A stretch of 64,000 bases of DNA from Octopus vulgaris (taxonomy: Eukaryota): NCBI GenBank assembly GCA_951406725.2, contig OX597831.1:19778001-19842000 (forward strand), written 5' to 3'. This document shows, piece after piece, positions 1,320 through 58,024 of the stretch; position 1 is the first letter of the stretch; the number at the start of each line of letters is the position of its first letter. Both the position numbers and the translations under genes were made by a program. The notes under the pieces were generated by a model. It worked only from the letters and a program-made list of their open reading frames with translations. It searched no databases and was not told where the DNA came from.

Positions 1320-1390
<71 letters not shown>

Positions 1391-1490
1391 GGAGTAAACA
1401 CATAAATGTGAAACAAAGTGGAAAAAAAGAGTACTCAAATACCAGTGGTAGAGTAATATGCTCTATTTAAAGCAGCAGAAAATTCAACAA

Positions 1491-1534
1491 AATCTGTTAC
1501 TCTGAGTTTCTCGTTGCCGTTCATCAGACAGATT
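1491..1534 (-). ncRNA. Type-I hammerhead ribozyme motif
   Basis: aatctgt-CTGATGA-acggcaacga-GAAActcagagTA-acagatt; stem I 7 bp. Confidence 0.8.
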
Positions 1535-1538
1535 CTAG

Positions 1539-1588
1539 CAAAATCTGTCTGATGAACGGCAACGAGAAACTCAGAGTAACAGATTTTG
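1539..1588 (+). ncRNA. Type-I hammerhead ribozyme motif
   Basis: caaaatctgt-CTGATGA-acggcaacga-GAAActcagagTA-acagattttg; 10-bp stem I; GUA site, predicted cut after 1578. Confidence 0.85.
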
Positions 1589-1614
1589 TTGAATTTTCTG
1601 CTGCTTTAAATAAA

Positions 1615-21059: not shown

Positions 21060-22208
21060 TCAACAAGCCGTCTGGCTGTGCATATAAGTTGTGGTGGAAT
21101 TCACAGTGCTTTGAAAGTTGTACATAACAGAAGATCCGGGCGTGTTAAGGACGTCATAAGGTTTTGGTGTACACCAGCAAAATAAATATCGATTATAGTA
21201 TTTTCGAAACTGGTTGCTTAAGAAATAAAGAGCGAACGGGTTAACACAAGAATTTATGAAGGCCATACAAAAACTGACAATTTTGAACATCATCCAAAAC
21301 GGATTAAATTCTTCATCGAAATAAAAATACCAGAAGAGATAAATATGTCTGGGGAGCCAGCAGATAGCAAATAACACGACAAACGAAAGAACTGCCTTGG
21401 CAACTTTCATTCGAGTTTCGATCTGTTTTTTATAACTTGCTTTGCCGTTTGAATCTCCTGGTATTTGTTTGGCGCTTAATATTAGAATGCGAGCCATTAA
21501 CACATAGAAAATTCCTATAATAATCAATGGGATCATAAAGAAGACGAAAAATTTTAACATGATCATCATTCGTGGATACCACATTGGAAGATGGCCGTTG
21601 ACGTCAACGGTTGGATAGAGTATGCAAATTCTTGCCGAATAGAGAGTAACGTTGTGTGATCCTTCAATGACTGTAGATGAACTTAAATCGGGTATTGCCA
21701 ATAGCAGGGCAACCACCCATAAGCATCCGGCGGTGGTTACTGCTCTCACAATCAATCTCGACTTGTGTTTCGCCATCGGGTCCACAATGGCTATATAGCG
21801 GTCAGCGCTAAGAGCCGTCAAGGTAAACACGGATACTCCTAATGAAACGGTTTGCAGATACTCGTTGATCTTACACATCACTTCGCCAAACGGCCATTCA
21901 GGTAGAATGAAAACCAAAGAATTGAATGGAACAGAAATAAGGATAAGAAGCAGATCCCCACACGAAAGGCTGACGATGTAAATATTTGGGACTACTCTCA
22001 TCTTACGGTTCCGAAGCACTGTGTAGATAAGAGTACCATTTCCAACAATACCAATAACAAAAACAAAACCAAATAAAATTGGCACCACAATTTGTTTGGG
22101 AGTGATTTCTCTATGAGACGGGTCAAAATCATCATAAAAATCGCCTTCTCCTGAATCATAAGTGAAATTCGAACTCAGATTCAAAGATGTCTTGTTGATC
22201 AACCCCAT
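21060..22208 (-). CDS. Class A neuropeptide GPCR, bombesin/GRP-, CCHamide-, excitatory-peptide-receptor-like (382 aa, single coding exon)
   Basis: Seven hydrophobic helices; GN in TM1, LSCGD in TM2, WPFG..C in ECL1, LSADRY, CWLP, NSCVNPFALY; N-terminal N-glycosylation sequons. Confidence 0.93.
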   Translation of the reverse strand: MGLINKTSLNLSSNFTYDSGEGDFYDDFDPSHREITPKQIVVPILFGFVFVIGIVGNGTLIYTVLRNRKMRVVPNIYIVSLSCGDLLLILISVPFNSLVFILPEWPFGEVMCKINEYLQTVSLGVSVFTLTALSADRYIAIVDPMAKHKSRLIVRAVTTAGCLWVVALLLAIPDLSSSTVIEGSHNVTLYSARICILYPTVDVNGHLPMWYPRMMIMLKFFVFFMIPLIIIGIFYVLMARILILSAKQIPGDSNGKASYKKQIETRMKVAKAVLSFVVLFAICWLPRHIYLFWYFYFDEEFNPFWMMFKIVSFCMAFINSCVNPFALYFLSNQFRKYYNRYLFCWCTPKPYDVLNTPGSSVMYNFQSTVNSTTTYMHSQTAC

Positions 22209-26167: not shown

Positions 26168-27713
26168 AAGTTTCTTTATTGGCCTCACAGTGCTGCACAC
26201 AGATAGGACAAGTTACAAGGTAGAGCTTTTCTTTTGGGGGATGAAAAAAAACAAAAAAACAAAAAACAAAAGAAACAAACAAAGGTGGCGTAGGTTTTCG
26301 ATCAAAAGGGATCGTAAAAGGGAAAAAAGAACAAAAAAGAAAAAAAGAAAAGAAAGAAAGAAAGAAAAGGAAAAGGAACAAAAGAAAAGAGAAATTAAAA
26401 AAAAGAAGAAAAAAGGAGGCAAAAGGGGGAAGAGGAAAAAAACGATCAATAGGGATCGTGTATCACAGTCTTATGATGTATGGTGTAAAGGGGAAAGCAA
26501 GTAAGGTTTATCCGTGGGAAGAAAAGCCTACGAAAAAGACCACGGTGACCTTGGTCAATATTGTTATATGTTACCACATTTGTTTGCAAGTGGGTAACCC
26601 TCAGTTTTCAATTTCTGGGTTCATAGGATCATGCTCAAGGTGGCTTCGTCATTCATACGTGCCATCCTTGCTACATTCACCCATCTTTTTTTAAAACATT
26701 CGCTAGACAAAACTTGCCTCTCTACTCTCACTTTCCTTTTCAAGTGGTACTTGAAGAAGTTGATGAGAGATTGACCAGAGAGGAAAGTCTTTGTCTCCAA
26801 TCCTTTCAGACGCGTCCACCAGATACATTCTTTCAACATAGCCACAAGGATGATGAAAATAGTTCTTCCTTCCCGTTTGAAGGAAGGAGGCGTGACAATA
26901 TTGACGATAGACTCAGTTGATAAACCGACTCGTCCCACACGTGACAGCAGTCGTTCGACATAAGCCCACAGGTCGGGGATTGTTGGACACTGCACGAGTG
27001 CGTGCAGAACGGTTTCGTCGCTCTGACCGCATCTCGGGCAGGTCGGCCCCGTGTTTCTCGAGCCGTGTCTGTAGAGCTTATCCCGAACGGGTAGCGCTTC
27101 TCGGTAGCACTGCCAGGCCAGGGATCTCTGGAAGTTGTCCATGGGCCCTGGCCCGAAAGTCGTCCCGAACAGGCGGGTCAGGTACTCCAGGTTCGACGTC
27201 CAGGTTCGCCCCGAGCTCGTCGTCGTACCGCCCCTCCACTAATCCCCTATAGAATGTTTTGGTTGTGATGAAGTCACTCAAGGTCGACCCAGGACGGCAG
27301 AGTTGCTTGAGAGCAACGCGACACTCGCAGTGCCATTCGCCCTTCCTCGGCCTCTTTTTGATCCACGACTGCAGTTCGGTCATGGAAACGAGCTGCGGGA
27401 AAGCGTGCCTCACAAACGGCGACCACACCTGTTCACCGTCGTCTACGAAGAGCCTGAGATGTCGCAGTCTCAGCGCGTGTCTGCGCATCATCAACCACGG
27501 CACGCCCAGGCCTCCTTTTAACGGGTGTTGACAGCAAATGGATCGCCTGACCATCGGGACGCATCCTTTCCACAAGAAGCGAAAGAGAATGCGTTCTAGT
27601 TTTGTGATGGTAGGGTCGGGACAAGGCACGACGGTCAGGCGGTAGTAGATGACGGACGCGATGTACGTGTTTGACGGACGCGATGTACGTGTTTGACGGA
27701 CGCGATGTACGTG
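26168..27713 (-). mobile_element. 5'-truncated Tx1/L1-clade LINE (ORF2 C-terminus plus 3' UTR)
   Basis: LFRFLWKG...KGGLG motif, zf-RVT-like CPRC..ETVLHALVQC, frameshift near 27190, AATAAA just before (TCTA)n. Confidence 0.85.
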
Positions 27714-29004: not shown

Positions 29005-29012
<8 letters not shown>

Positions 29013-29528
29013 ACAAAATAATAAATAAAACATATGCATATATACATACATATATGTACATACCCAGATCTATATGTATATATACGTGTACATAGGGGTA
29101 CAGGACATTAAAGAGAAAACGTAGAACACAATGAGAAACGAAAACATAAAAAGAAAAACATGGAAACGGACTCTTTTCAAATAACGAAAAAACAGAGTAC
29201 AAGACATACAACGCGAGGAATATTCCCCTTCTTCAGCTGCCCCTGTTTCGACTACTCCGTGTTTCGAAGGTCACGGAGTAGTCGAAACAGGGGCAGCTGA
29301 AGAAGGGGAATATTCCTCGCGTTGTATGTCTTGTACTCTGTTTTTTCGTTATTTGAAAAGAGTCCGTTTCCATGTTTTTCTTTTTATGTTTTCGTTTCTC
29401 ATTGTGTTCTACGTTTTCTCTTTAATGTCCTGTACCCCTATGTACACGTATATATACATATAGATCTGGGTATGTACATATATGTATGTATATATGCATA
29501 TGTTTTATTTATTATTTTGTTATTATAT
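29005..29528. repeat. Near-perfect palindrome, ~257-bp arms, 10-nt loop
   Basis: Arms 29005-29261 and 29272-29528; mirror-identical ORFs start at 29211(-) and 29322(+); single-arm relative at ~57725-57980. Confidence 0.9.
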
Positions 29529-29587
29529 GATCGACCGCCACGCATCCACTTCCAAGTAAGTTATATATATATATATATATATATATA

Positions 29588-30258
29588 TAAGCCCTGCCAA
29601 TATACACATATATTAGAAGTTTCTCTGACTTCTCAGATTTTTTGTATGCTGGACTACTGGTTTTAAATTGATATTAATATTAATTTATTTCCCTCATTAT
29701 CATTATTTATTATTTAAATATTGAAATAAATACGTTCTCTAGTAGTAAGCACCAACCGCAGTGAATTATTCACTGCAGCCCTTCGCCTCAGGAATTTATT
29801 AGCGCGCCAGAACCAAGACATTTGAAATTTTATCCCTAGTGTAATCGGTAAAGCTAAACACGTGTCTGTCCTGGCACGAAAAGCTGGAGTTAGCTTTTTC
29901 AGTTTACATTACAATGAACGAATGCACTGAAGAAGCACGGACATTTGAATTACGTAAGTAATTCTTTTGTTAAAGGCCGAAACCGAGGTATGCATTTAAT
30001 TCTGTTTTTTATATAAATTTTCATCTGTCCTGCCCGCCAAATTTGGTTCTGGTGTTCGCTGAATATTTTCCTCTAGAGAATTCCCTTTTAGTTTGATCGT
30101 TGATGGTCTATTTCTAGCATTCGGCCGACTTCCTAGCAGTAAGCCCTGCCAATATACACATATATTAGAATTTTCTCTGACTTCTCAGATTTTTTGTATG
30201 CTGGACTACTGGTTTTAAATTGATATTAAAATTAATTTATCTCCCTCATTATTTATTA
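29588..30258 (+). mobile_element. Retrozyme/pLTR-like element, 552-bp period, with hammerhead at 29921-29996
   Basis: ~115-bp direct repeat at 29588 and 30140; aatgca-CTGAAGA-stem II-GAAAccgaggTA-tgcatt. Confidence 0.8.
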
Positions 30259-34172: not shown

Positions 34173-35694
34173 TGATTGATTGATTGATTGATTCTAGTTT
34201 CAGCTTATGAGCTGTGGCCATGCTGGGGCACCGCCATTTGGTGTTGCTACTTGGTTTCACTTCATGGAGGCTTTCTAGCAACTGCTATTTGGTGCATGAG
34301 AGAGTTCGATGCAGCTGCCCTCATCTGCCCCTCCTGCCGTGAAGTTGGTTCATCTGGGACACCTGACAGGAAGAGATCCAGCTTCATTTTAAAGACATCT
34401 GTATCCACCCCATGCAGGTCTCTCAGGTTCTTCGGGAGGATATTGAAGAGCTGTGGGCCTCGGAAGCCCAGGCTATCACAGAATCTTGTCCTACATCTTG
34501 ATGGCAGGTTTGGAGTCCTAGGCACCACGCAGTGGCGCCCAGTTCTGGCATTTGCGTAACTCTCGATGCCAAAGTTCAGGACACTTCCCTCCAGGATCTT
34601 CCAGATGTATATTATGGCATATCTTTCCCGCCTACGCTCCAGGGAATATAATTTTAATCTCTTGAGTCTTTCCCAGTAGCTTACATTCTGCATAGAGGCT
34701 ATCTTCTTTGTGTAGCTTCGTTGGATCGCCTCAAGTTCTGTGATCAACTTGACACTGGATGGTGACCATAGCTGAGAGCAATAGTCAAAGTGGCTTAGGA
34801 CAAGTGTCTTCCAGAGGACCATCATGGTTTCTTGTTCTCTTGTTCTAAAGGTTCTAAGAATCCATCCAGCCAGCCGTCTACATTTCATTGTCAGTTTAGC
34901 AACATGTACATGAAAGGTCGCGTCATCACTCATGTGAATACCCAGGTCACGCACTGATTGTGCCTCTGGGATTGCAATCCCTCCGGGTCCAGTGTATTCA
35001 TTGGGTATTGCATTCAGTTTTGCATGCTGATAGTATAAAGCTTGAAACTTTCCAGCATTGAACTGCATGCTATTCTTTTCAGCCCACTTGTATATTTCGT
35101 CCAGCTCACATTGCAGGTGTTTAGTGTCCTCAGGGTTCTGTATTGCCTGTGAAACTTTTGTATCATCTGCATAACTTGTGATCGTGGCTCTCTGCGTGGC
35201 TGAGGGCATGTCTGAGAGGGCCATTATGAACAGTAGTGGTCCCAGAACAGTGCCCTGCGGAACACCGCTCACTATTTGTGTGTTAATGGAGGTGGCCCCA
35301 TTGGCTACTACCACCTGACTTCTATCCTTCAGAAAGTCATGAAGCCATTCTCCCAGTTTTCCAACTATGTTGAGATCACGCAGTTTGTGACATATCATTC
35401 CATGATCGACTTTATCAAAGGCCTTTGCAAAGTCGAGATATATCACTTCCACATTTGAGTGGTTGAGCAGCCGTTTCAGCACCCAGTCATAGTGTTGTAG
35501 GAGCTGAGTTAAACAGCTTCTCCCTGGTCGGAAACCATGTTGGGTGTCGGGCAGCAAGTCATTCTCTTCAAGGAAGGTGATCAGCTTCCTTCTGACTATT
35601 CGTTCCATGACCTTGCTGATGTGTGAGGTCAGAGAGATAGGTCTATAGTTCTTGGCTTCCGCTCTGCTACCTCCTTTATGAATGGGGCATATTT

Positions 35695-35769
<75 letters not shown>

Positions 35770-36059
35770 TATACATATATATATATATGAGAGTTTGATA
35801 GAAGAATGTTAACTCTTCCTTCCGTAGAAGAAAAATATTCAAATCGGACCATGTTAACACCAAAAATTATTTACATCAAAACGGTGCCTTTTTTCTATGA
35901 AAATCCCTATTTTATACGATGTTGTGACTGCTGTGTCGCCATTTTTCGGTGTATTTCACTTAAAGAGAATAACAAGCTACATACTGCCAAATTTTAACTT
36001 TTCAAAAATTCCAATTCTAAAAGGTCTAAACAAACCGCAACGCCGGGGGATACTGCTAG
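33646..36059 (+). mobile_element. Putative non-autonomous Helitron split by a LINE insertion
   Basis: 5' TCTATATATATATAAAA+(GTCT/GT)n at 33646; 3' GCAACGCCGGG..TACTGCTAG at 36059, like the intact element at 55952-56333. Confidence 0.5.
34170..35698 (-). mobile_element. 5'-truncated CR1-group LINE, uninterrupted RT frame
   Basis: YRPISLTS, QHGFRPGRSC, LDFAKAFD, GVPQGTVLGP, YADD, RDLG, LERRR; (CAAT)n tail; flanked by (TA)n. Confidence 0.93.
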
Positions 36060-39731: not shown

Positions 39732-40887
39732 CTAACATTAAAGACCCGTCGTTGCCGGGTCATAGTGCTAGTGCATGTATATATGTGTATATATATGTGT
39801 ACATATTACATGTACATCTATATATATACAATGGTTGTATACTGTCACGTTAAATTGACAGTATACAAACATTCTATCGCGCCACCACCGTACATATCTC
39901 TATGAGATATTTAGAAATTTAATATTTCTGATATATATATATACATCTACACATAAAATACAAAATACAAAGTTATATCTTGATATCGCTAGTGTTAACA
40001 ATACTCAAAATATATAACAGACTGGAATTGTAAGCCCGTCTCTTGCAATTTCGATCAATTGTATCTTGTCGTCCCTCTTGTATAGAAGTGTGGCTACAAT
40101 CCAGCCTGCCTCTACTTCGGGGGGGGGGCATTTAAAATATTTTTCCGGGTCGTCCTACGTCCCAGATATGAAGGTAAAAATAAAATATTTCCACTTTGCA
40201 AGTTCGAGTCGAGTACTCCCTTGCACCATGATACTTTTCGAAGGTGGTTTCCTCCATGTGTTCAAATCTTTTTTCTCTACATTGTGTACTTTATAGACAA
40301 TAGTATTTTCTTTAATTTAATCTTTTATTACCCATCTGGACTATTCCATTTCTGCACGCTAATTTTATTTTAAATTTATTCCCATTCATGTGAAACCACT
40401 TATTCAAGTTCAAATCATTGATGCAATTTTATACCAATTGCTATTTTTACTTTTGTCATGTTACTTTAGTTTGATTTTAATTATTACTTACTACATACAA
40501 TTCAATTGTTATTATTAATTTTATTGTTAAAGTGAAAGTATCTGACATAAAATAGAGAAACGTTTTTGTTTCACTTTTAACACGTTATACTGAAATTGTG
40601 GAGAAGATATGATATTGCTATGGGCTCGCTCTAGGCAAGAAGTTGAACATTTTTTGGCTCATGAATCTACATGGACCCTAAGTAAGGCATGTGTAAAATT
40701 TGAATGGAATTGGTTGTCAAGTTCTCCAGTTTTAGGGAATCGTAGTAGAGAAGATATGATATTGCTGTGGGCTCGCCCAAGGCAAAAAGTTAAAATCTTT
40801 TGCCGATGACACTCCCCGGACCCTAAGTAAGGCATGTGTAAAATTTGATGGAATTGGTTGTGTAGTTCTCATGTTTTAGGGAAACAC

Positions 40888-40922
<35 letters not shown>

Positions 40923-40944
40923 TTCTCAGTTGTATATATAAAGA
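39732..40944 (-). mobile_element. Non-autonomous Helitron, copy 1
   Basis: 5' TCTTTATATATAC+(GTCT)n; 3' hairpin ACCCGGCAACGACGGGT then TTAG (CTAG in copy 2). Confidence 0.75.
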
Positions 40945-41798: not shown

Positions 41799-42678
41799 CT
41801 AGCATTAAAGACCCGTCGTTGTCGGGTCATAGTTCTTGTGCATGTATATATGTGTATATATGTGTACATATTACATGTACATCTATATATATACATCTAC
41901 ACATAAAATGCAAAATACAAAGTTATATCTTGATATCGCTAGTGATAACAATATTCAAAATATATAACAGACTGGAATTGTTAGCTCTTCTTTTTTCTCT
42001 ACATTGTATACTTTATAGACAATAGTATTTTCTTTAATTTAAGTTTTTATTATCCATCTGGACTATTCCATTTCTGCACGCTAATTATATTTTTAATTTA
42101 TTCCCATTCATGTGAAACCACTTATTCAAGTTCAAATCATTGATGCAATTTTATACCAATTGCTATTTTTACTTTTGTATGTTACGATTATATTATACTT
42201 TAGTTTGATTTTAATTATTACTTACTACATATAATTCAATTGTTATTATTATTTTTATTGTTAAAGTGAAAGCATCTGACATAAAATAGAGAAACGTTTT
42301 TGTTTCACTTTTAACACGTTATACTGAAATAGTGGAGAAGATATGATATTGCTATGGGCTCGCTCTAGGCAAGAAGTTGAATATTTTTTGGCTCATGAAA
42401 CTACATGGGCCCTAAGTAAGGCATGTGTAAAATTTGAATGAAATTGGTTGTGTAGTTCTCCAGTTTTAGGGAATCGTAGTAGAGAAGATATGATATTGCT
42501 GTGGGCTCGCCCAAGGCAAAAAGTTAAAATATTTTGCCGATGACACTCCCCGGACCCTAAGTAAGGCATGTGTAAAATTTGATGGAATTGGTTGTGTAGT
42601 TCTCATGTTTTAGGGAAACACACAGACAGACAGACAGACAGACAGACACACATTCTCAGTTGTATATATATATAAAGA
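41799..42678 (-). mobile_element. Non-autonomous Helitron, copy 2 (internally shorter)
   Basis: TC...hairpin-CTAG termini; near-identical to 39732-40944. Confidence 0.8.
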
Positions 42679-48900: not shown

Positions 48901-48939
<39 letters not shown>

Positions 48940-48942
<3 letters not shown>

Positions 48943-50335
48943 CAACAATTGAGGGTAAAATTAATTAATTATTAATCAATTTCACCAAGTGTTCAGTATG
49001 CAAAGGGACCATTTAAGGCGAATTCAAATTATTACATTATATAAAAGGGCTTAGTAAAATAAATTACTTTGCCGCATACTGAACTCATTAGAAATAGCAG
49101 CTAAAAAACTTTTTTAAAGCTATTTCTAATACTTAAAGAAAATCTCTCTCATGTAGTGTTTGCTTAACTCAACTCACGAAAGTTTGGGGGTAAGGACATC
49201 AAAAAATCAAATGCAAAGGTTATTTGAGAACGTACGTTTCAAGATTAGTCAAAACAACACTTCTATCATCAGCTCAGAAACTCCTTGGTTTGGATTTGAA
49301 AACACTGAAAGTAAGAACATACCTTTTCGGCTTCTCATCGCTTTCGAGATCCGCTCGTAACTAACAGTGCCAACAAACCCAAATAAGCAAGCGAAGAATT
49401 TCTGTCCTCCCCTTTCCACCAGCGTGGGTTAAAATCATCAAACACTATGCTTATTTCGGTAAAATCCGAAGCATTAATTAGAGGGAGATTAATTATAATT
49501 TCAACAATTGAGGGTAAAATTAATTAATTATTAATCAATTTCACCAAGTGTTCAGTATGCAAAGGGACCATTTAAGGCGAATTCAAATTATTACATTATA
49601 TAAAAGGGCTTAGTAAAATAAATTACTTTGCCGCATACTAAACTCATTAGAAATAGCAGCTAAAAACTTTTTTAAAGCTATTTCTAATACTTAAAGAAAA
49701 TCTCTCTCATATATAGTGTTTGCTTAATTCAACTCACAAAAGTTTGGGGGTAAGGACATAAAAAAATCAAATGCTAAGGTTATTTGAGAACGTACGTTTC
49801 AAGATTAGTCAAAACAACACTTCTATCATCAGCTCAGAAACTCCTTGGTTTGGATTTGAAAACACTGAAAGTAAGAGCATACCTTTTCGGCTTCTCATCG
49901 CTTTCGAAGATCTGCTCGTAAGCTATTTCTAATGAGTTCAGTATGCGGCAAAGTAATTTATTTTACTAAGCCCTTTTATATAATGTAATAATTTGAATTC
50001 GCCTTAAATGGTCCCTTTGCATACTGAACACTTGGTGAAATTGATTAATAATTAATTAATTTTACCCTCAATTGTTGAAATTATAATTAATCTCCCTCTA
50101 ATTAATGCTTCGGATTTTACCGAAATAAGCATAGTGTTTGATGATTTTAACCTTTGCATTTGATTTTTTGATGTCCTTACCCCCAAACTTTCGTGAGTTG
50201 AGTTAAGCAAACACTACATGAGAGAGATTTTCTTTAAGTATTAGAAATAGCTTTAAAAAAGTTTTTTAGCTGCTATTTCTAATGAGTTCAGTATGCGGCA
50301 AAGTAATTTATTTTACTAAGCCCTTTTATATAATA
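48940..50335 (-). mobile_element. Retrozyme-like tandem (560-bp unit, ~1.75 copies) plus inverted segments
   Basis: Units start 48940 and 49499; identical hammerheads at 49225-49276 and 49785-49836; inverted copies 49921-50335. Confidence 0.85.
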
Positions 50336-50349
50336 TATATATATATATA

Positions 50350-51271
50350 GTGTTGCATATTTGCCATTTGAATATGGCTAACCCATAAGGGTGGATGCTA
50401 CTGTAGTTTGTAGCCCCAGGAAGATATCTCCTCCAGCTGGCTATAGACACACTATCTGTGTCCTGTCAGTATTTGTGAAGGGGAGTCATCCTCCCCGTCT
50501 TCAACACATGATACACACGTACCCGAGTTTCAAGGTGTTTACCTTTCATCAACGTGTGACAATCATGGTTGTCGATGAGAAGTCAGATCCCTTCACAAAT
50601 ACATATACTTTTTCCAGTGTCGATCTGACACTGATGTTGAAAAAGTGAAATCAAACAATGATAAATCTCAGAGCGAGTTATAAACAGTAGCGGTAACACA
50701 TCGTGACGCATATTTGCCATTTGAATATGGCTAACCCATAAGGGTGGATGCTACTGTAGTTTGTAGCCTCAGGAAGATATCTCCTCCAGCTGGCTATAGA
50801 CACACTATCTCTGTCCTGTCAGTATTTGTGAAGGGGAGTCATCCATATTCAAATGGCAAATATGCAACACGATGTGTTACCGCTACTGTTTATAACTCGC
50901 TCTGAGATTTATCATTGTTTGATTTCACTTTTCCAATATCAGTGTCAGCCGACACTGGAAAAAGTATATGTATTTGTGAAGGGAGCTGACTTCTCATCGA
51001 CAACCATGATTGTCACACGCTGATGAAAGGTAAACACCTTGAAACTCGGGTACGTGTGTATCATGTGTTGAAGACGGGGAGGATGACTCCCCTTCACAAA
51101 TACTGACAGGACACAGATAGTGTGTCTATAGCCAGCTGGAGGAGATATCTTGCTGGGGCTACAAACTACAGTAGCATCCACTCTTATGGGTTAGCCATAT
51201 TCAAATGGCAAATATGCAACACGATGTGTTACCGCTACTGTTTATATCTCGCTCTGAGATTTATCATTGTT
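50350..51271. mobile_element. Retrozyme-like 353-bp unit, tandem plus inverted
   Basis: Units at 50355/50708, inverted at ~50843/51195; hammerhead 51014-51058(+) and C3U copy 50514-50558(-). Confidence 0.85.
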
Positions 51272-51281
51272 ATATATATAT

Positions 51282-53339
51282 GTTAGTTAGTTATTTAGTT
51301 AGTTAATTTGGCTCAAAAGCAAATAGCAAGGCCATGTAGGGGGGACATGGAGTTAAGTACAGGGTGGTGTTCATGTAAAGAGTTCAGGCCACTTGAGGTC
51401 CAGGGAGGCTTTGAACAAAGCGGTCGTCGGCATCTTCACCATCTCGTCTGGCAGCTTGTTCCACGGATCCGCAACCCGGACGGAGAAAGCCCCTCTCCTT
51501 CGATTGAGATGAAATCGTCGCAGGTAGAGCTTTTCGGAATGACCCCGCAGCCGACGCTCTGGAGCAGGAGTGAAGAACAGCTCTTTCGAGAGGTTACACT
51601 TTCCGCTTATGATGTTGTGGGCGAGAATGAAATCACCACGGCGGCGGCGTTTTTCAAGAGAATAAAGGTCGAGCGTCCTCAGCCTTTCTTCGTAGGACAA
51701 ATTTTTGAGACCATGAACCATGCGGGTAGCCAGCTTCTGGACTCTTTCGAGATGCTGTATGTCTTTGAGGAGATAAGGAGAAGAGGCTTGAATCCCATAC
51801 TCCAATATTGGTCTCACCAGCGTGACATAGAGTGGTAGGAATATGGCTACTGTGAGCATTCCGAATGACCGTCGAATCAAGAACAGAATTCCGCGTGCTT
51901 TGTTGGCAGCATGGACGCACTGGGCCGAAGGCGAAAAGGAGGAATCCACCAAGATACCCAGGTCCTTTACCTGATCGGTCCTCTCCAGCAGCAGACGACC
52001 CGGCTCGAAATCAAGTTGAGTTGCAGGAGTAGAGCCGACAGGCAGATGACAGCACTTTGACACGTTCAGACACAGGTCCCAATCGTTAGACCACTTCCAA
52101 ATTTGGTGGAGGCATCGACGAAGATCCTCTATATTACCGCGAGGAGCGACCAGTTTGATATCGTCGGCAAATAGAAGGGTGTGTTGCGTGAGGTCGTCGG
52201 GCAAGTCATTTATGAAGACTAAGAACAACAAGGGCCCAAGCACTGAACCTTGAGGCACGCCACTGCTCGCACTGGAGACGTCGGACCGCGAACCATTAAC
52301 TTGGACTTGGAAGGAGCGATCTGAGAGGAAGGCACCAACCCATCGTATAATATCCGGATGGAAACTATATGCTTGAAGCTTGACAAGTAATAGGCGGTGG
52401 TTTACCGAGTCAAAAGCTTTGGCAAAGTCCAATAAAACGATGTCAACAGCATCACTATCATCGAGGATGCGCGTCACCAATTCTTCCATTACTAGTAAGT
52501 TGGTCAAGCATGATCTCTTCGGCACGAAGCCGTGTTGGGAATCAGAGATAGAGGCTGTGTTTAGGAGGTGGAGCATCATACTTTTCTTAAGGATGGTTTC
52601 GAACATCTTGCTGATTATTGATGTAAGGGAAACCGGTCGGTAGTTAAGCGGGTCTTCGCGGCTCCCTTTCTTGAAAATTGGGCAGATTATCGCTGTTCTC
52701 CAGTCTGCAGGTATATCACCCGTTGCCAATGACATATTGAATAGTCGTGTTAAGGGCTCGCAGATGACCGGAGCCAACGCTTTGATAACCCGTGGGTGTA
52801 TGCCGTCAGGGCCGTGACCCTTGTTGACATCGAGGCCTTGAATAACACGTTTGACTTCGTCCCTCGTGATGACCAATCGAAGCATTGGAGGTACCGATCT
52901 ATCAAATGGAGGGGGTTCACGACCATCATCTTGTTTGAAAATAGTTGAAAAAGCCTCGGCAAATAATTGGCTCTGTTGATAAGGGTCCTCAATCGATACG
53001 CCTGTTGAGTCTACCAACGTTGCAATCTGGTTGTTCAAGCGGGAATTCCGCTGGACATGGGCAAATAAAGGTTTTTGGATTGCTACTGGCATTTGCCGCG
53101 ATTTTGTATTCATAACTGAAGCGTTCTTTCTTTTCAATTTTCACGACTCGGTCTCGTTGAGTTTTGTACACCTCAAAAGCTGCAGTCGAATCCAGACTTT
53201 TGAATTCAGCCCAAGCAATATCTCTGAGTCGACGTTCTCGTTTAACCTTCTTCGTCACCCAGGGCTTGTGTTTCTTCTTCTTGGGAAGCCCAACGGGAAC
53301 TGCCTGGTCAGTCAAACAGATTACATATGCTTTGAGGGA
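51282..53339 (-). mobile_element. 5'-truncated CR1-group LINE (RT domain), one frameshift near 53070
   Basis: KPWVT, GPDGIHP, YRPVSLTS, LDFAKAFD, GVPQGSVLGP, FADD, LEKRRRRGD; (TAAC)n tail. Confidence 0.93.
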
Positions 53340-56333: not shown

Positions 56334-56359
56334 TATATATATATATATATATATATATG

Positions 56360-57675
56360 AAAAATCAAGTCAGGATAGAAAATACTAAAATAATTTTATA
56401 AAAACATTTCAGTACCGGTTTCAGTCATTGAGACTTTTTCAACTGTAACAATGAAATAATTAAATTAAAGTGGTCAGTGGCGGCTAGCTGTTGCTGTTCA
56501 ATTCATGAGAATATTTCTATTGAAAGGTTTGTTTATAGAATTTGCGTAAGTATTATACTAAAAAGCATTAGTGATAAAGTTAGGAAGTAGAAGGGGAGAA
56601 GAAGAAGAAGAAGAAGAAGAAGAAGAAGAAGAAGAAGAAGAAGAAGAAGAAGAAGAAGAAGAAGGGGGAATATGAATGAGTAGAAGTAGTGAGGTGTTGT
56701 ATGACTTAAAGTTGGCACGTTATGGGTTATAGCTGTGATTGGGGCTGATTTTTAATGGATTCTTAGGAATGTAATATTTGCGCGTGTATTTGTGTTATTC
56801 TAAAGCCAAGGTGGATATATCGTTTGTCGTAGACCGGTTCAGAAGGGGCCTGTATTTTGTAATAAAGAGAGTTTCTTTACTTATTCGTTGGCTCGGGGTT
56901 GTATCGTCCCTGAATTGGTAGAGGGGGAAAATCCTAAAGCTTGGAGTTTTGTTGTTGGCGCAAATATCTATGTGTTGGCTGAATCCTATTTTTCTGTTTT
57001 GGGGAATTTTTATCTGGATCTGTGCAGGGCCATTCTTTTACGTAAACTATTTTTTGTTTGGCCTATGTATTGCTCTTGACACCCAGAGCAGGTAGTGTGT
57101 ATATCAGGTTCTCCGAAGCACATGCGAAGTTGCTTTTCACTGTGAACTGTTGTCCCTGTTTGAAGGAGAACTCTGATCTCTCAATTAGATAATCGCATAT
57201 CCCGCAATTGGGTCTTCCACATTTTTTTACTGTCGGCTTCTGTGTTGATGAGCGTATGCTTTTTAGTATAACACCTACGCAAATTCTATAAACAAACCTT
57301 TCAATAGAAATATTCTCATGAATTGAACAGCAACAGCTAGCCGCCACTGACCACTCAAAATACGACAATCAAGGCACTCCGAAATTCTTTCCGCCCCACC
57401 TTCTCCTCATCTTTCTTCTTTTTCTTCCCTACCAAGAATTCACAACGACCTCAAACCCACAAGTGTAAAAAGAGAAACAGGGAAAGGCAGAAACAAGGAA
57501 AATGCCACTTATATTTGAACACTATACAAATATTCTTTTAAAAGACCTTTTCTTTTAATTTTTCTAAATTTAATTATTTAATTGTTGCAGTTGAAAAGGT
57601 TTCAAATGACCGAAACCGGTACTAAAATGTTCTTTATAAAATTATTTTAGCATTTTCTATCTTGACTTGTTTTTT
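56360..57675 (-). mobile_element. Penelope-like element remnant: GIY-YIG endonuclease with inverted hammerhead-bearing ends
   Basis: CGRPNCGIC...NLIY (frameshift) CSGCQEQYIGQT..LRKR...KETLFITKYRPLLN at ~56835-57250; 56360-56570 inverted to 57255-57675. Confidence 0.85.
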
Positions 57676-57975
57676 CATATATATCAACTCGTGTGTTCCT
57701 TTTCATCCTTATACATATATATATCGAAACGCAGAGTAGATGAAACCATGGCGACTGAAGAAGGGGAATTTTCCTTGTGTTATTTGTATTGTACACTACT
57801 TTTTCGTTGTTTAAGAAAAATGTCCAGTTCCTTGGTTTTGTGTTTATGTTTTCGTTTCTCATTGTGTTCGACGTTATTTTTGGTGTCCTGTACCCATATA
57901 TGCATGTATATATACATGTAGAGGTAGGTACGTACATATATGTATGTATATATGCATATCTTTTATTTATTAATT

Positions 57976-58024
<49 letters not shown>

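What the first reader, a model, noticed from the sequence alone, without database searches (positions are those of the whole stretch)
50350..51271. 353-nt tandem/inverted unit with one intact and one C3U hammerhead
cacacg-CTGATGA-aaggt-aaac-acctt-GAAActcgggTA-cgtgtg at 51014-51058 is a compact canonical type I. The opposite-strand copy (50514-50558) has TTGATGA. About 1.4 units in one orientation abut about 1.2 units in the other. The sequence is unrelated to the 560-bp family but the architecture is the same.
Basis: partly seen in the sequence, partly recalled or inferred. Interest (0 to 1): 0.75.

Follow-up and report, generated by a model that had tools for sequence, protein, structure and literature searches.

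The report
Octopus retrozyme with Penelope insertion scars
This is a copy of a short, protein-free repeat in an octopus genome that carries a hammerhead-ribozyme sequence and was likely pasted into a TA microsatellite by the enzyme of a Penelope-like retrotransposon; it is a new member of a known class, useful mainly because its ends likely record how such elements are copied.

Summary
Two arms of a 352/353-nt unit lie head to head (left 50350-50844 on minus, 1.40 units; right 50843-51271 on plus, 1.22 units). Each arm has one type I hammerhead; the left one has C3U. Both 3' ends face outward into (TA)n, and the right arm carries a 49-nt extra tail. The host is Octopus or a close relative. Related sequence lies on contigs of 4 of 4 public runs laid, with the tandem joint, other inversion joints and both 3' ends seen again. 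This is the published anatomy of Penelope-like element (PLE) insertions on an ORF-less unit, i.e. a non-LTR retrozyme. Four other inverted, tailed, (TA)n-flanked insertions lie in the window, one with a GIY-YIG-like remnant. Cleavage, expression and the partner PLE were not shown. Verdict: new member of a known kind, interest 0.35.

The parts
50333..50349 (.). (TA)n target, left; shared with the 560-bp element
50350..50844 (-). left arm, 495 nt = 1.40 units of 353 nt; 3' end at 50350 (unit position 51222), 5' truncated at unit position 51081
50514..50558 (-). type I hammerhead with U3 (50552), G8 unchanged; predicted U3-A17 pair covers the cut site after 50520
50700..50844 (-). inner partial repeat of the left arm; carries the family-majority dinucleotide at 50706-50707 where the other three copies carry the rarer one
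50843..50844 (.). inversion joint with 2-nt microhomology
50843..51271 (+). right arm, 429 nt = 1.22 units of 352 nt; 5' truncated at unit position 51195, 3' end at 51271
50970..51103 (+). long imperfect rod that extends stem I below the ribozyme
   Evidence: z = -6.48
51014..51058 (+). type I hammerhead with consensus core: stem I 6 bp, stem II 5 bp, stem III 2 bp plus quasi-palindromic loop; predicted cut after A51052; predicted dimer-dependent
51223..51271 (+). 49-nt tail present on the right arm only (second recurrent 3' end)
51271..51280 (.). (TA)5 target, right; adjoins the 3' tail of a LINE on the minus strand (RT ORF 51371-53140)

Best explanation
The locus is one insertion of an ORF-less 352/353-nt hammerhead-bearing repeat (a non-LTR retrozyme) that was likely copied in trans by the reverse transcriptase/GIY-YIG protein of a Penelope-like element. 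Shown: unit, ribozyme sequence, head-to-head arms, outward 3' ends in (TA)n, one-sided 49-nt tail, recurrence of both ends and of the tandem joint elsewhere. Inferred: a donor with tandem units was transcribed; the PLE protein nicked both strands of the TA run and primed two cDNAs at two internal start sites 49 nt apart (170 and 219 nt downstream of the ribozyme cut, so not at the cut); each cDNA ran through an uncut or re-ligated ribozyme for 1.2-1.4 units; the two cDNA ends were joined over 2 nt of microhomology. The ribozyme likely acts as a dimer in tandem donors; here it is likely silent, as each arm has one copy and a read-through RNA would pair with its own mirror arm. C3U is most likely decay of one copy.
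For: Anatomy. It matches the PLE signature in PMC8557442 (partial tandem, inverted 5'-truncated copy, tail at one end, (TA)n preference) and the in vitro PLE reaction in PMC11167929 (both strands cut and extended in AT-rich DNA, two internal RT start sites making the tail, ribozyme cleavage not needed). Unit size, 42.9% GC, no ORF (longest stop-free stretch 66 aa sense, 81 aa antisense) and a stable circular fold (-114.5 kcal/mol, z = -5.7, 0 of 100 shuffles) match retrozymes (PMC7229834). 5 of the 5 inverted elements I compared in the window have a one-sided tail of about 30-100 nt and end at (TA)n; 12 of 12 ends of six elements lie at a TA run against 3.5% background (ends picked by eye). 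One of them holds a GIY-YIG-like remnant and a U3-A8 ribozyme, a variant described for PLEs; joint 51271 to 50920 in 2 of 4 runs; four other inversion joints; 13 contigs with TA runs behind 51268 and 11 with AT-rich DNA about ten letters behind 51215 in run X1.
Against: No autonomous PLE sharing sequence with this unit was found; the window's own PLE-like remnant shows no similarity to it, and its Pfam GIY-YIG match is weak (E 0.076, below cutoff, 1 of 3 pieces). Rfam gives no hammerhead hit. The tail (49 nt) is longer than the 30-40 nt described. Each joint rests on one contig at 85% likeness. Lack of listed variants in the 14 core letters is not significant (36 of 352 positions vary among the 40 rows shown, 5 hidden; about 1.4 expected). 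Only 1 of 9 Xenopus dimers cleaved in vitro, so sequence does not guarantee activity. No target-site duplication can be read inside (TA)n.
Confidence: 0.78

Rival explanations
1. The unit is only the pseudo-LTR end of a longer autonomous PLE, and the locus is two 5'-truncated copies of it.
For: Truncated PLE ends with opposite-strand ribozymes 100-700 bp apart are described (PMC4209133); the cores here are 468 nt apart. Some contigs match part of the unit and run on with unlaid sequence.
Against: The unit closes on itself after 352/353 nt in both arms with no ORF, and the same closing joint appears in 2 of 4 runs.
Confidence: 0.08
2. A LINE (such as the adjacent RT element) mobilised the unit as a SINE-like passenger.
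For: A LINE 3' end with a 589-aa RT frame abuts the right arm; PMC7229834 names LINEs as possible helpers.
Against: No poly(A) or LINE-like tail on either arm; two outward 3' ends with a one-sided tail are described as PLE-specific; similar insertions lie far from that LINE.
Confidence: 0.05
3. A satellite monomer was rearranged at DNA level (fold-back, recombination), or the palindrome is an assembly artefact.
Against: The arms differ at 10 of 353 columns, which a fold-back read would not give; the one-sided tail recurs in 5 of 5 inverted elements; both ends recur in other contigs.
Confidence: 0.05
4. A MITE or foldback DNA transposon with long terminal inverted repeats inserted at TA.
For: Long inverted arms (276 nt, 98%) and TA flanks.
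Against: The ends are unequal by 49 nt, the arms are internally tandem, inversion joints differ between copies, and each arm carries a ribozyme motif.
Confidence: 0.03
5. An endogenised, RNA-replicating viroid-like circle.
For: Compact self-paired 352-nt circle with a hammerhead.
Against: Ribozyme in one polarity only; thousands of contigs laid in DNA-type runs; 0 matches in viral contigs and metagenome contigs, exact patterns only.
Confidence: 0.01

Closest known systems
Metazoan non-LTR retrozymes (Cervera and de la Pena 2020, PMC7229834; mussel 350-390 bp, axolotl 330/350 bp)
   Same: Unit size, GC under 45%, one type I hammerhead per unit, no ORF, head-to-tail joint, self-paired circle fold, mollusc host.
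   Different: Here only partial tandems with one ribozyme per arm, set head to head with a one-sided tail in (TA)n; 'inverted' does not occur in that paper's main text. Expression as circRNA was shown there, not here.
Retrozymes as non-autonomous PLEs (Li, Clavereau, Pollet 2026, bioRxiv 10.64898/2026.07.22.740005)
   Same: Same conclusion on origin and helper; monomer-type offspring copies.
   Different: That work used co-occurrence and trees in 35 genomes, no mollusc, and does not treat tails or inversions. This locus fails its 'active' criterion of two consecutive ribozyme units.
Endonuclease-bearing PLE insertions (Craig 2021, PMC8557442; PAc of Anolis, Frangieh 2024, PMC11167929)
   Same: Partial tandem, inverted 5'-truncated copy, tail at one end, AT-rich/(TA)n target, 3' ends away from the ribozyme cut.
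   Different: No RT/GIY-YIG ORF; tail 49 nt rather than 30-40 nt; the helper is not identified.
Type I hammerheads of PLEs and animal repeats (Cervera and de la Pena 2014, PMC4209133)
   Same: Stem I 6 bp, short stem III with palindromic loop, dimer model, opposite-strand pairs 100-700 bp apart.
   Different: The known core variant is U3-A8; the left copy here is U3 with G8, uncompensated. Stem II is 5 bp without the bulge of minimal PLE ribozymes.

Membership tests
Type I hammerhead ribozyme | Core CUGANGA, GAAA, NUH with three stems, stem I open | tested here: met
   Right copy. The left copy fails at C3.
Type I hammerhead ribozyme | Match to an Rfam hammerhead model | tested here: not met
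   No hit at gathering score or at E up to 10. Library coverage, not part of the biochemical definition.
Type I hammerhead ribozyme | Covariation in stems among family members | tested here: inconclusive
   A51027G and T51040C would turn the first pair of stem II into G-C; both appear in 3 of 4 runs, at unequal depths, and were not shown on the same contig.
Type I hammerhead ribozyme | Loop I/loop II tertiary contact | not tested
   An internal loop lies in extended stem I; the contact was not modelled.
Type I hammerhead ribozyme | Self-cleavage after H17 | not testable with these tools
   Folding predicts a trapped monomer and a competent dimer.
Non-LTR retrozyme | 150-450 bp unit, GC under 45-50%, one type I hammerhead per unit | tested here: met
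   352/353 nt, 42.9% GC.
Non-LTR retrozyme | Head-to-tail tandem organisation, repeated in the genome | tested here: met
   Partial tandems in both arms; joint 51271 to 50920 in 2 of 4 runs and many variant contigs in 4 of 4. Array lengths unknown.
Non-LTR retrozyme | No protein-coding capacity | tested here: met
   Longest stop-free stretch round the circle 66 aa sense, 81 aa antisense; no database search of these peptides.
Non-LTR retrozyme | Expressed as linear and circular RNA | not testable with these tools
   Contigs only; no run on record as RNA.
'Active' retrozyme locus (Li 2026 criterion) | Two consecutive units each with a complete hammerhead | tested here: not met
   One per arm, on opposite strands. 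Not filed as an active donor.
PLE-type insertion | Partial tandem plus inverted 5'-truncated copy | tested here: met
PLE-type insertion | Tail at one end; two recurrent 3' ends | tested here: met
   49 nt; loose ends near both positions in run X1.
PLE-type insertion | AT-rich or (TA)n target | tested here: met
   Both ends.
Autonomous PLE | ORF with RT and GIY-YIG endonuclease | tested here: not met
   Not filed as an autonomous PLE.
Non-autonomous derivative of a named PLE | Sequence similarity to the pseudo-LTR or start-site region of an autonomous partner | tested here: inconclusive
   Compared only with seven other elements in the window, one 12-nt match; no genome is held.

The most novel reading that the evidence does not exclude
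Octopus retrozyme insertions record their template: they are copied by a PLE enzyme from uncut multi-unit linear transcripts primed on both target strands, not from the monomer circle that the retrozyme model assumes. The hint: the inner repeat of the left arm carries the family-majority dinucleotide while the three other copies at this locus carry the rarer one, which a single circle could not give without later conversion. Slow or dimer-dependent ribozymes would then be favoured among long insertions.
Probability: 0.3. Interest if true: 0.6.

Novelty: new member of a known kind. Interest (0 to 1): 0.35.

Why it matters
How retrozymes are reinserted is open: PMC7229834 proposes circles copied by PLE or LINE enzymes, and the 2026 preprint supports a PLE origin by phylogeny only. 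An ORF-less unit that carries the full PLE scar (inversion, one-sided tail, TA target, ends away from the ribozyme cut) is anatomical support for PLE mobilisation. Octopus offers several unrelated families with the same scar in 64 kb, so helper, start sites and circle-versus-multimer template can be tested by a genome census. The single locus is otherwise an ordinary, likely silent repeat copy.

Tried and rejected
Rfam: no hammerhead match at either threshold. No whole genome is held, so no copy count and no helper search. Exact-pattern scans found 0 matches in metagenome contigs and viral contigs. No RNA holder listed among 24 runs; run X5 is only guessed to be RNA, so its 130-nt exact match over the ribozyme is not used as evidence of expression. 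Summed contig depth is higher over 51090-51260 than over the ribozyme, but it is no copy number and was not used. Earlier findings of the scan: nothing by sequence, place or words. Bacterial promoter/terminator scan at chance level and irrelevant to an animal. The MAFFT alignment of eight ribozyme candidates was poor and used only as a listing. Twin priming on one RNA is suggested by the 28-nt overlap between the right arm's 5' end (51195) and the left arm's start (51222), but the 560-bp element does not show it and the chance of so small a gap is about one in six; kept as a possibility only. C3U as a functional variant rejected: G8 is unchanged, whereas the described variant is U3-A8, and no variant at 51020 is among the 40 rows shown (5 hidden). 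Rate data for U3-G8 were not found (the paper asked for is not held).

Full report
Observation. The motif is at 51014-51058 on the plus strand and its mirror at 50514-50558 on the minus strand with T at position 3. The left arm runs 50844 to 50350 (495 nt, period 353) and the right arm 50843 to 51271 (429 nt, period 352); the two units differ at 10 of 353 columns. The arms meet at their 5' ends over 2 nt of microhomology. A strict type I scan finds only these two sites in the window; 10 of 200 shuffled windows gave one hit and none gave two. The ribozyme sits on a long rod (z = -6.48, 0 of 200 shuffles). Rfam has no match. The unit shows no similarity to the 560-bp element.

Host and surroundings. 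A receptor ORF in the window shares a 90% cluster with an Octopus bimaculoides protein, so the host is Octopus or a close relative. The element lies between a TA run at 50333-50349, shared with the 560-bp element, and five TA units at 51271-51280 beside the 3' tail of a LINE whose RT frame is 51371-53140. No target duplication can be read in TA repeats.

Both 3' ends point outward. The left arm stops at unit position 51222 and the right arm 49 nt further on, 170 and 219 nt downstream of the predicted cut. The same plan appears in four other inverted elements that I compared: 1389-1614 (tail about 73 nt), 29010-29561 (about 33), 48939-50332 (about 100) and 56358-57714 (about 30). All 12 ends of these, of the finding and of a direct-only element at 29590-30256 lie at a TA run, against 3.5% of background positions; I picked the ends by eye, so this is not a blind test. 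The element at 56358-57714 holds a frameshifted reading frame with a C-x4-C-x2-C motif and a YIG motif; Pfam gives only a sub-threshold GIY-YIG hit on 1 of 3 pieces (E 0.076) and the Atlas a lead (0.88, 10% of members). It carries a U3-A8 ribozyme motif in both arms.

The family elsewhere. 20 of 24 listed runs, from 12 studies and 8 organism labels, hold part of the unit; the best share is 0.53 and none is on record as RNA. I laid 4 of them on 50920-51420 at 85% likeness: 5499, 4524, 225 and 2707 contigs laid, LINE part included, with all 30 bins covered in each. The joint 51271 to 50920 appears in X3 and X2 (one contig each). Four opposite-strand joints appear, one contig each, none equal to this locus's joint; the tool warns that joints at this likeness can come from other repeats. 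Among 24 of 577 loose ends shown, 13 contigs of X1 continue in a TA run behind 51268, and 11 continue behind 51215 with about ten letters of a unit variant and then AT-rich DNA. GUC replaces GUA at the cut site in most of the depth in X1 and X3 and in a minority in X2 and X5. A51027G, T51040C and G51049A would give a G-C first pair in stem II and a fully palindromic loop III; linkage on one molecule was not shown. No variant of a core letter is among the 40 rows shown (5 hidden), but about 1.4 would be expected by chance, so this is weak.

The ribozymes. Alone, the right copy is predicted to pair C3-A6 with loop III (P 0.95); the hammerhead fold is 5.6 kcal/mol above the minimum. Two copies co-fold into the double hammerhead with an 8-bp shared stem III (-29.5 against -26.0 kcal/mol). 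Dimer dependence is described for such motifs (PMC4209133, parts 1-2 of 4 read; PMC7229834, passages and sections 14 and 17). The left copy loses the C3-G8 pair and gains U3-A17 (P 0.95), like the C3-G17 trap proposed in PMC3884650 (passages). The natural variant at this pair is U3-A8 (PMC3088659, passages). These are folding predictions; cleavage was not measured. In the 2026 preprint only 1 of 9 dimers cleaved.

Mechanism. PMC8557442 (passages) describes PLE insertions as partial tandems with an inverted 5'-truncated copy, a 30-40 bp tail at one end and a (TA)n preference. PMC11167929 (parts 1-2 of 4) shows a PLE protein cutting and extending both strands of AT-rich DNA, starting at two internal sites whose spacing is the tail, without need of ribozyme cleavage. 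The locus fits each point. I infer two primings on opposite strands, two cDNAs of 1.40 and 1.22 units that passed the ribozyme, and joining of their ends. The template had to be a circle, an uncut multimer, or several RNAs with template jumps. One hint favours a mixed multimer: at unit positions 51218-51219 the inner left copy has the letters that are the majority in 4 of 4 runs, while the other three copies share the rarer pair. Later gene conversion or a template jump would explain it as well. With one ribozyme per arm the locus cannot release a monomer, and a read-through RNA would pair with its mirror arm (276 nt at 98%), so it is likely an end product.

Comparison and novelty. By size, GC, lack of ORF, ribozyme type and circle fold (z = -5.7) the unit is a non-LTR retrozyme; bioRxiv 10.64898/2026.07.22.740005 (parts 1-3 of 5 and a term search) argues that these are non-autonomous PLEs. 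Opposite-strand ribozyme pairs 100-700 bp apart are already reported in schistosomes, hammerheads are counted in the giant squid genome (PMC6962438, passages), and 31 recently active Penelope-like families are listed for O. vulgaris without mention of ribozymes (PMC13282606, passages). Seven literature searches showed no description of an octopus retrozyme or of retrozyme insertions with tail and inversion; the library lacks most subscription papers and Repbase, the supplement of PMC7229834 and the preprint's supplements could not be read, and one file of PMC4209133 was not searched. PMC7151607 (passages) gave no C3U rate.

Verdict. A real feature and a new member of a known kind: an octopus non-LTR retrozyme copy with the PLE insertion signature (confidence 0.78). 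Not an autonomous PLE and not an active donor locus. Interest 0.35; 0.6 if the template proves to be linear multimers rather than circles (probability 0.3).

Noticed in passing
window 56358-57714: Inverted, (TA)n-flanked element with a frameshifted GIY-YIG-like reading frame (C-x4-C-x2-C upstream, minus strand 56795-57260), a tail of about 30 nt and a U3-A8 hammerhead motif in both arms whose stem II differs by an A-U to G-C change; likely a 5'-truncated Neptune/Nematis-type PLE (clade recalled from PMC8557442, not tested by tree).
   Followed up: partly
window 48939-50332: The 560-bp element has two hammerheads in its minus arm (cores 49272, 49832). Its plus arm lacks about 205 nt including the ribozyme; the jump lands 6 nt from the predicted cleaved 5' end (49222 against 49228), as a template switch at a cut RNA end would give.
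   Followed up: partly
window 1389-1614: Short head-to-head pair of type I hammerheads (cores 1527 minus, 1549 plus), each truncated just 5' of stem I, tail about 73 nt, TA runs on both sides.
   Followed up: partly
window 29590-30256: About 1.2 units of a 552-nt repeat with a type I hammerhead (core 29927, long stem II), direct only, TA runs on both sides.
   Followed up: partly
window 29010-29561 and 57725-57978: A 98.9% perfect 525-nt palindrome with a 33-nt one-sided tail, and a related single arm; holds a CTGAAGA motif but no complete hammerhead by my scans.
   Followed up: partly
window 51371-53140 (-), 34262-35866 (-), 26621-27640 (-): LINE-type reverse transcriptase frames; the first gives Pfam RVT_1 at E 1e-32, the others were not searched.
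   Followed up: partly
window 21060-22208 (-): Single-frame 382-aa GPCR, clustered with an Octopus bimaculoides CCHamide-1 / gastrin-releasing-peptide receptor-like protein.
   Followed up: partly
window 39931-40940 and 41881-42670: A duplication of about 690 nt at 95% identity with an internal repeat of about 140-145 nt; no hammerhead found.
   Followed up: no
run X5, loose end behind 51026: A second subfamily of this ribozyme with a different stem II, a palindromic loop III and a GUC site.
   Followed up: no
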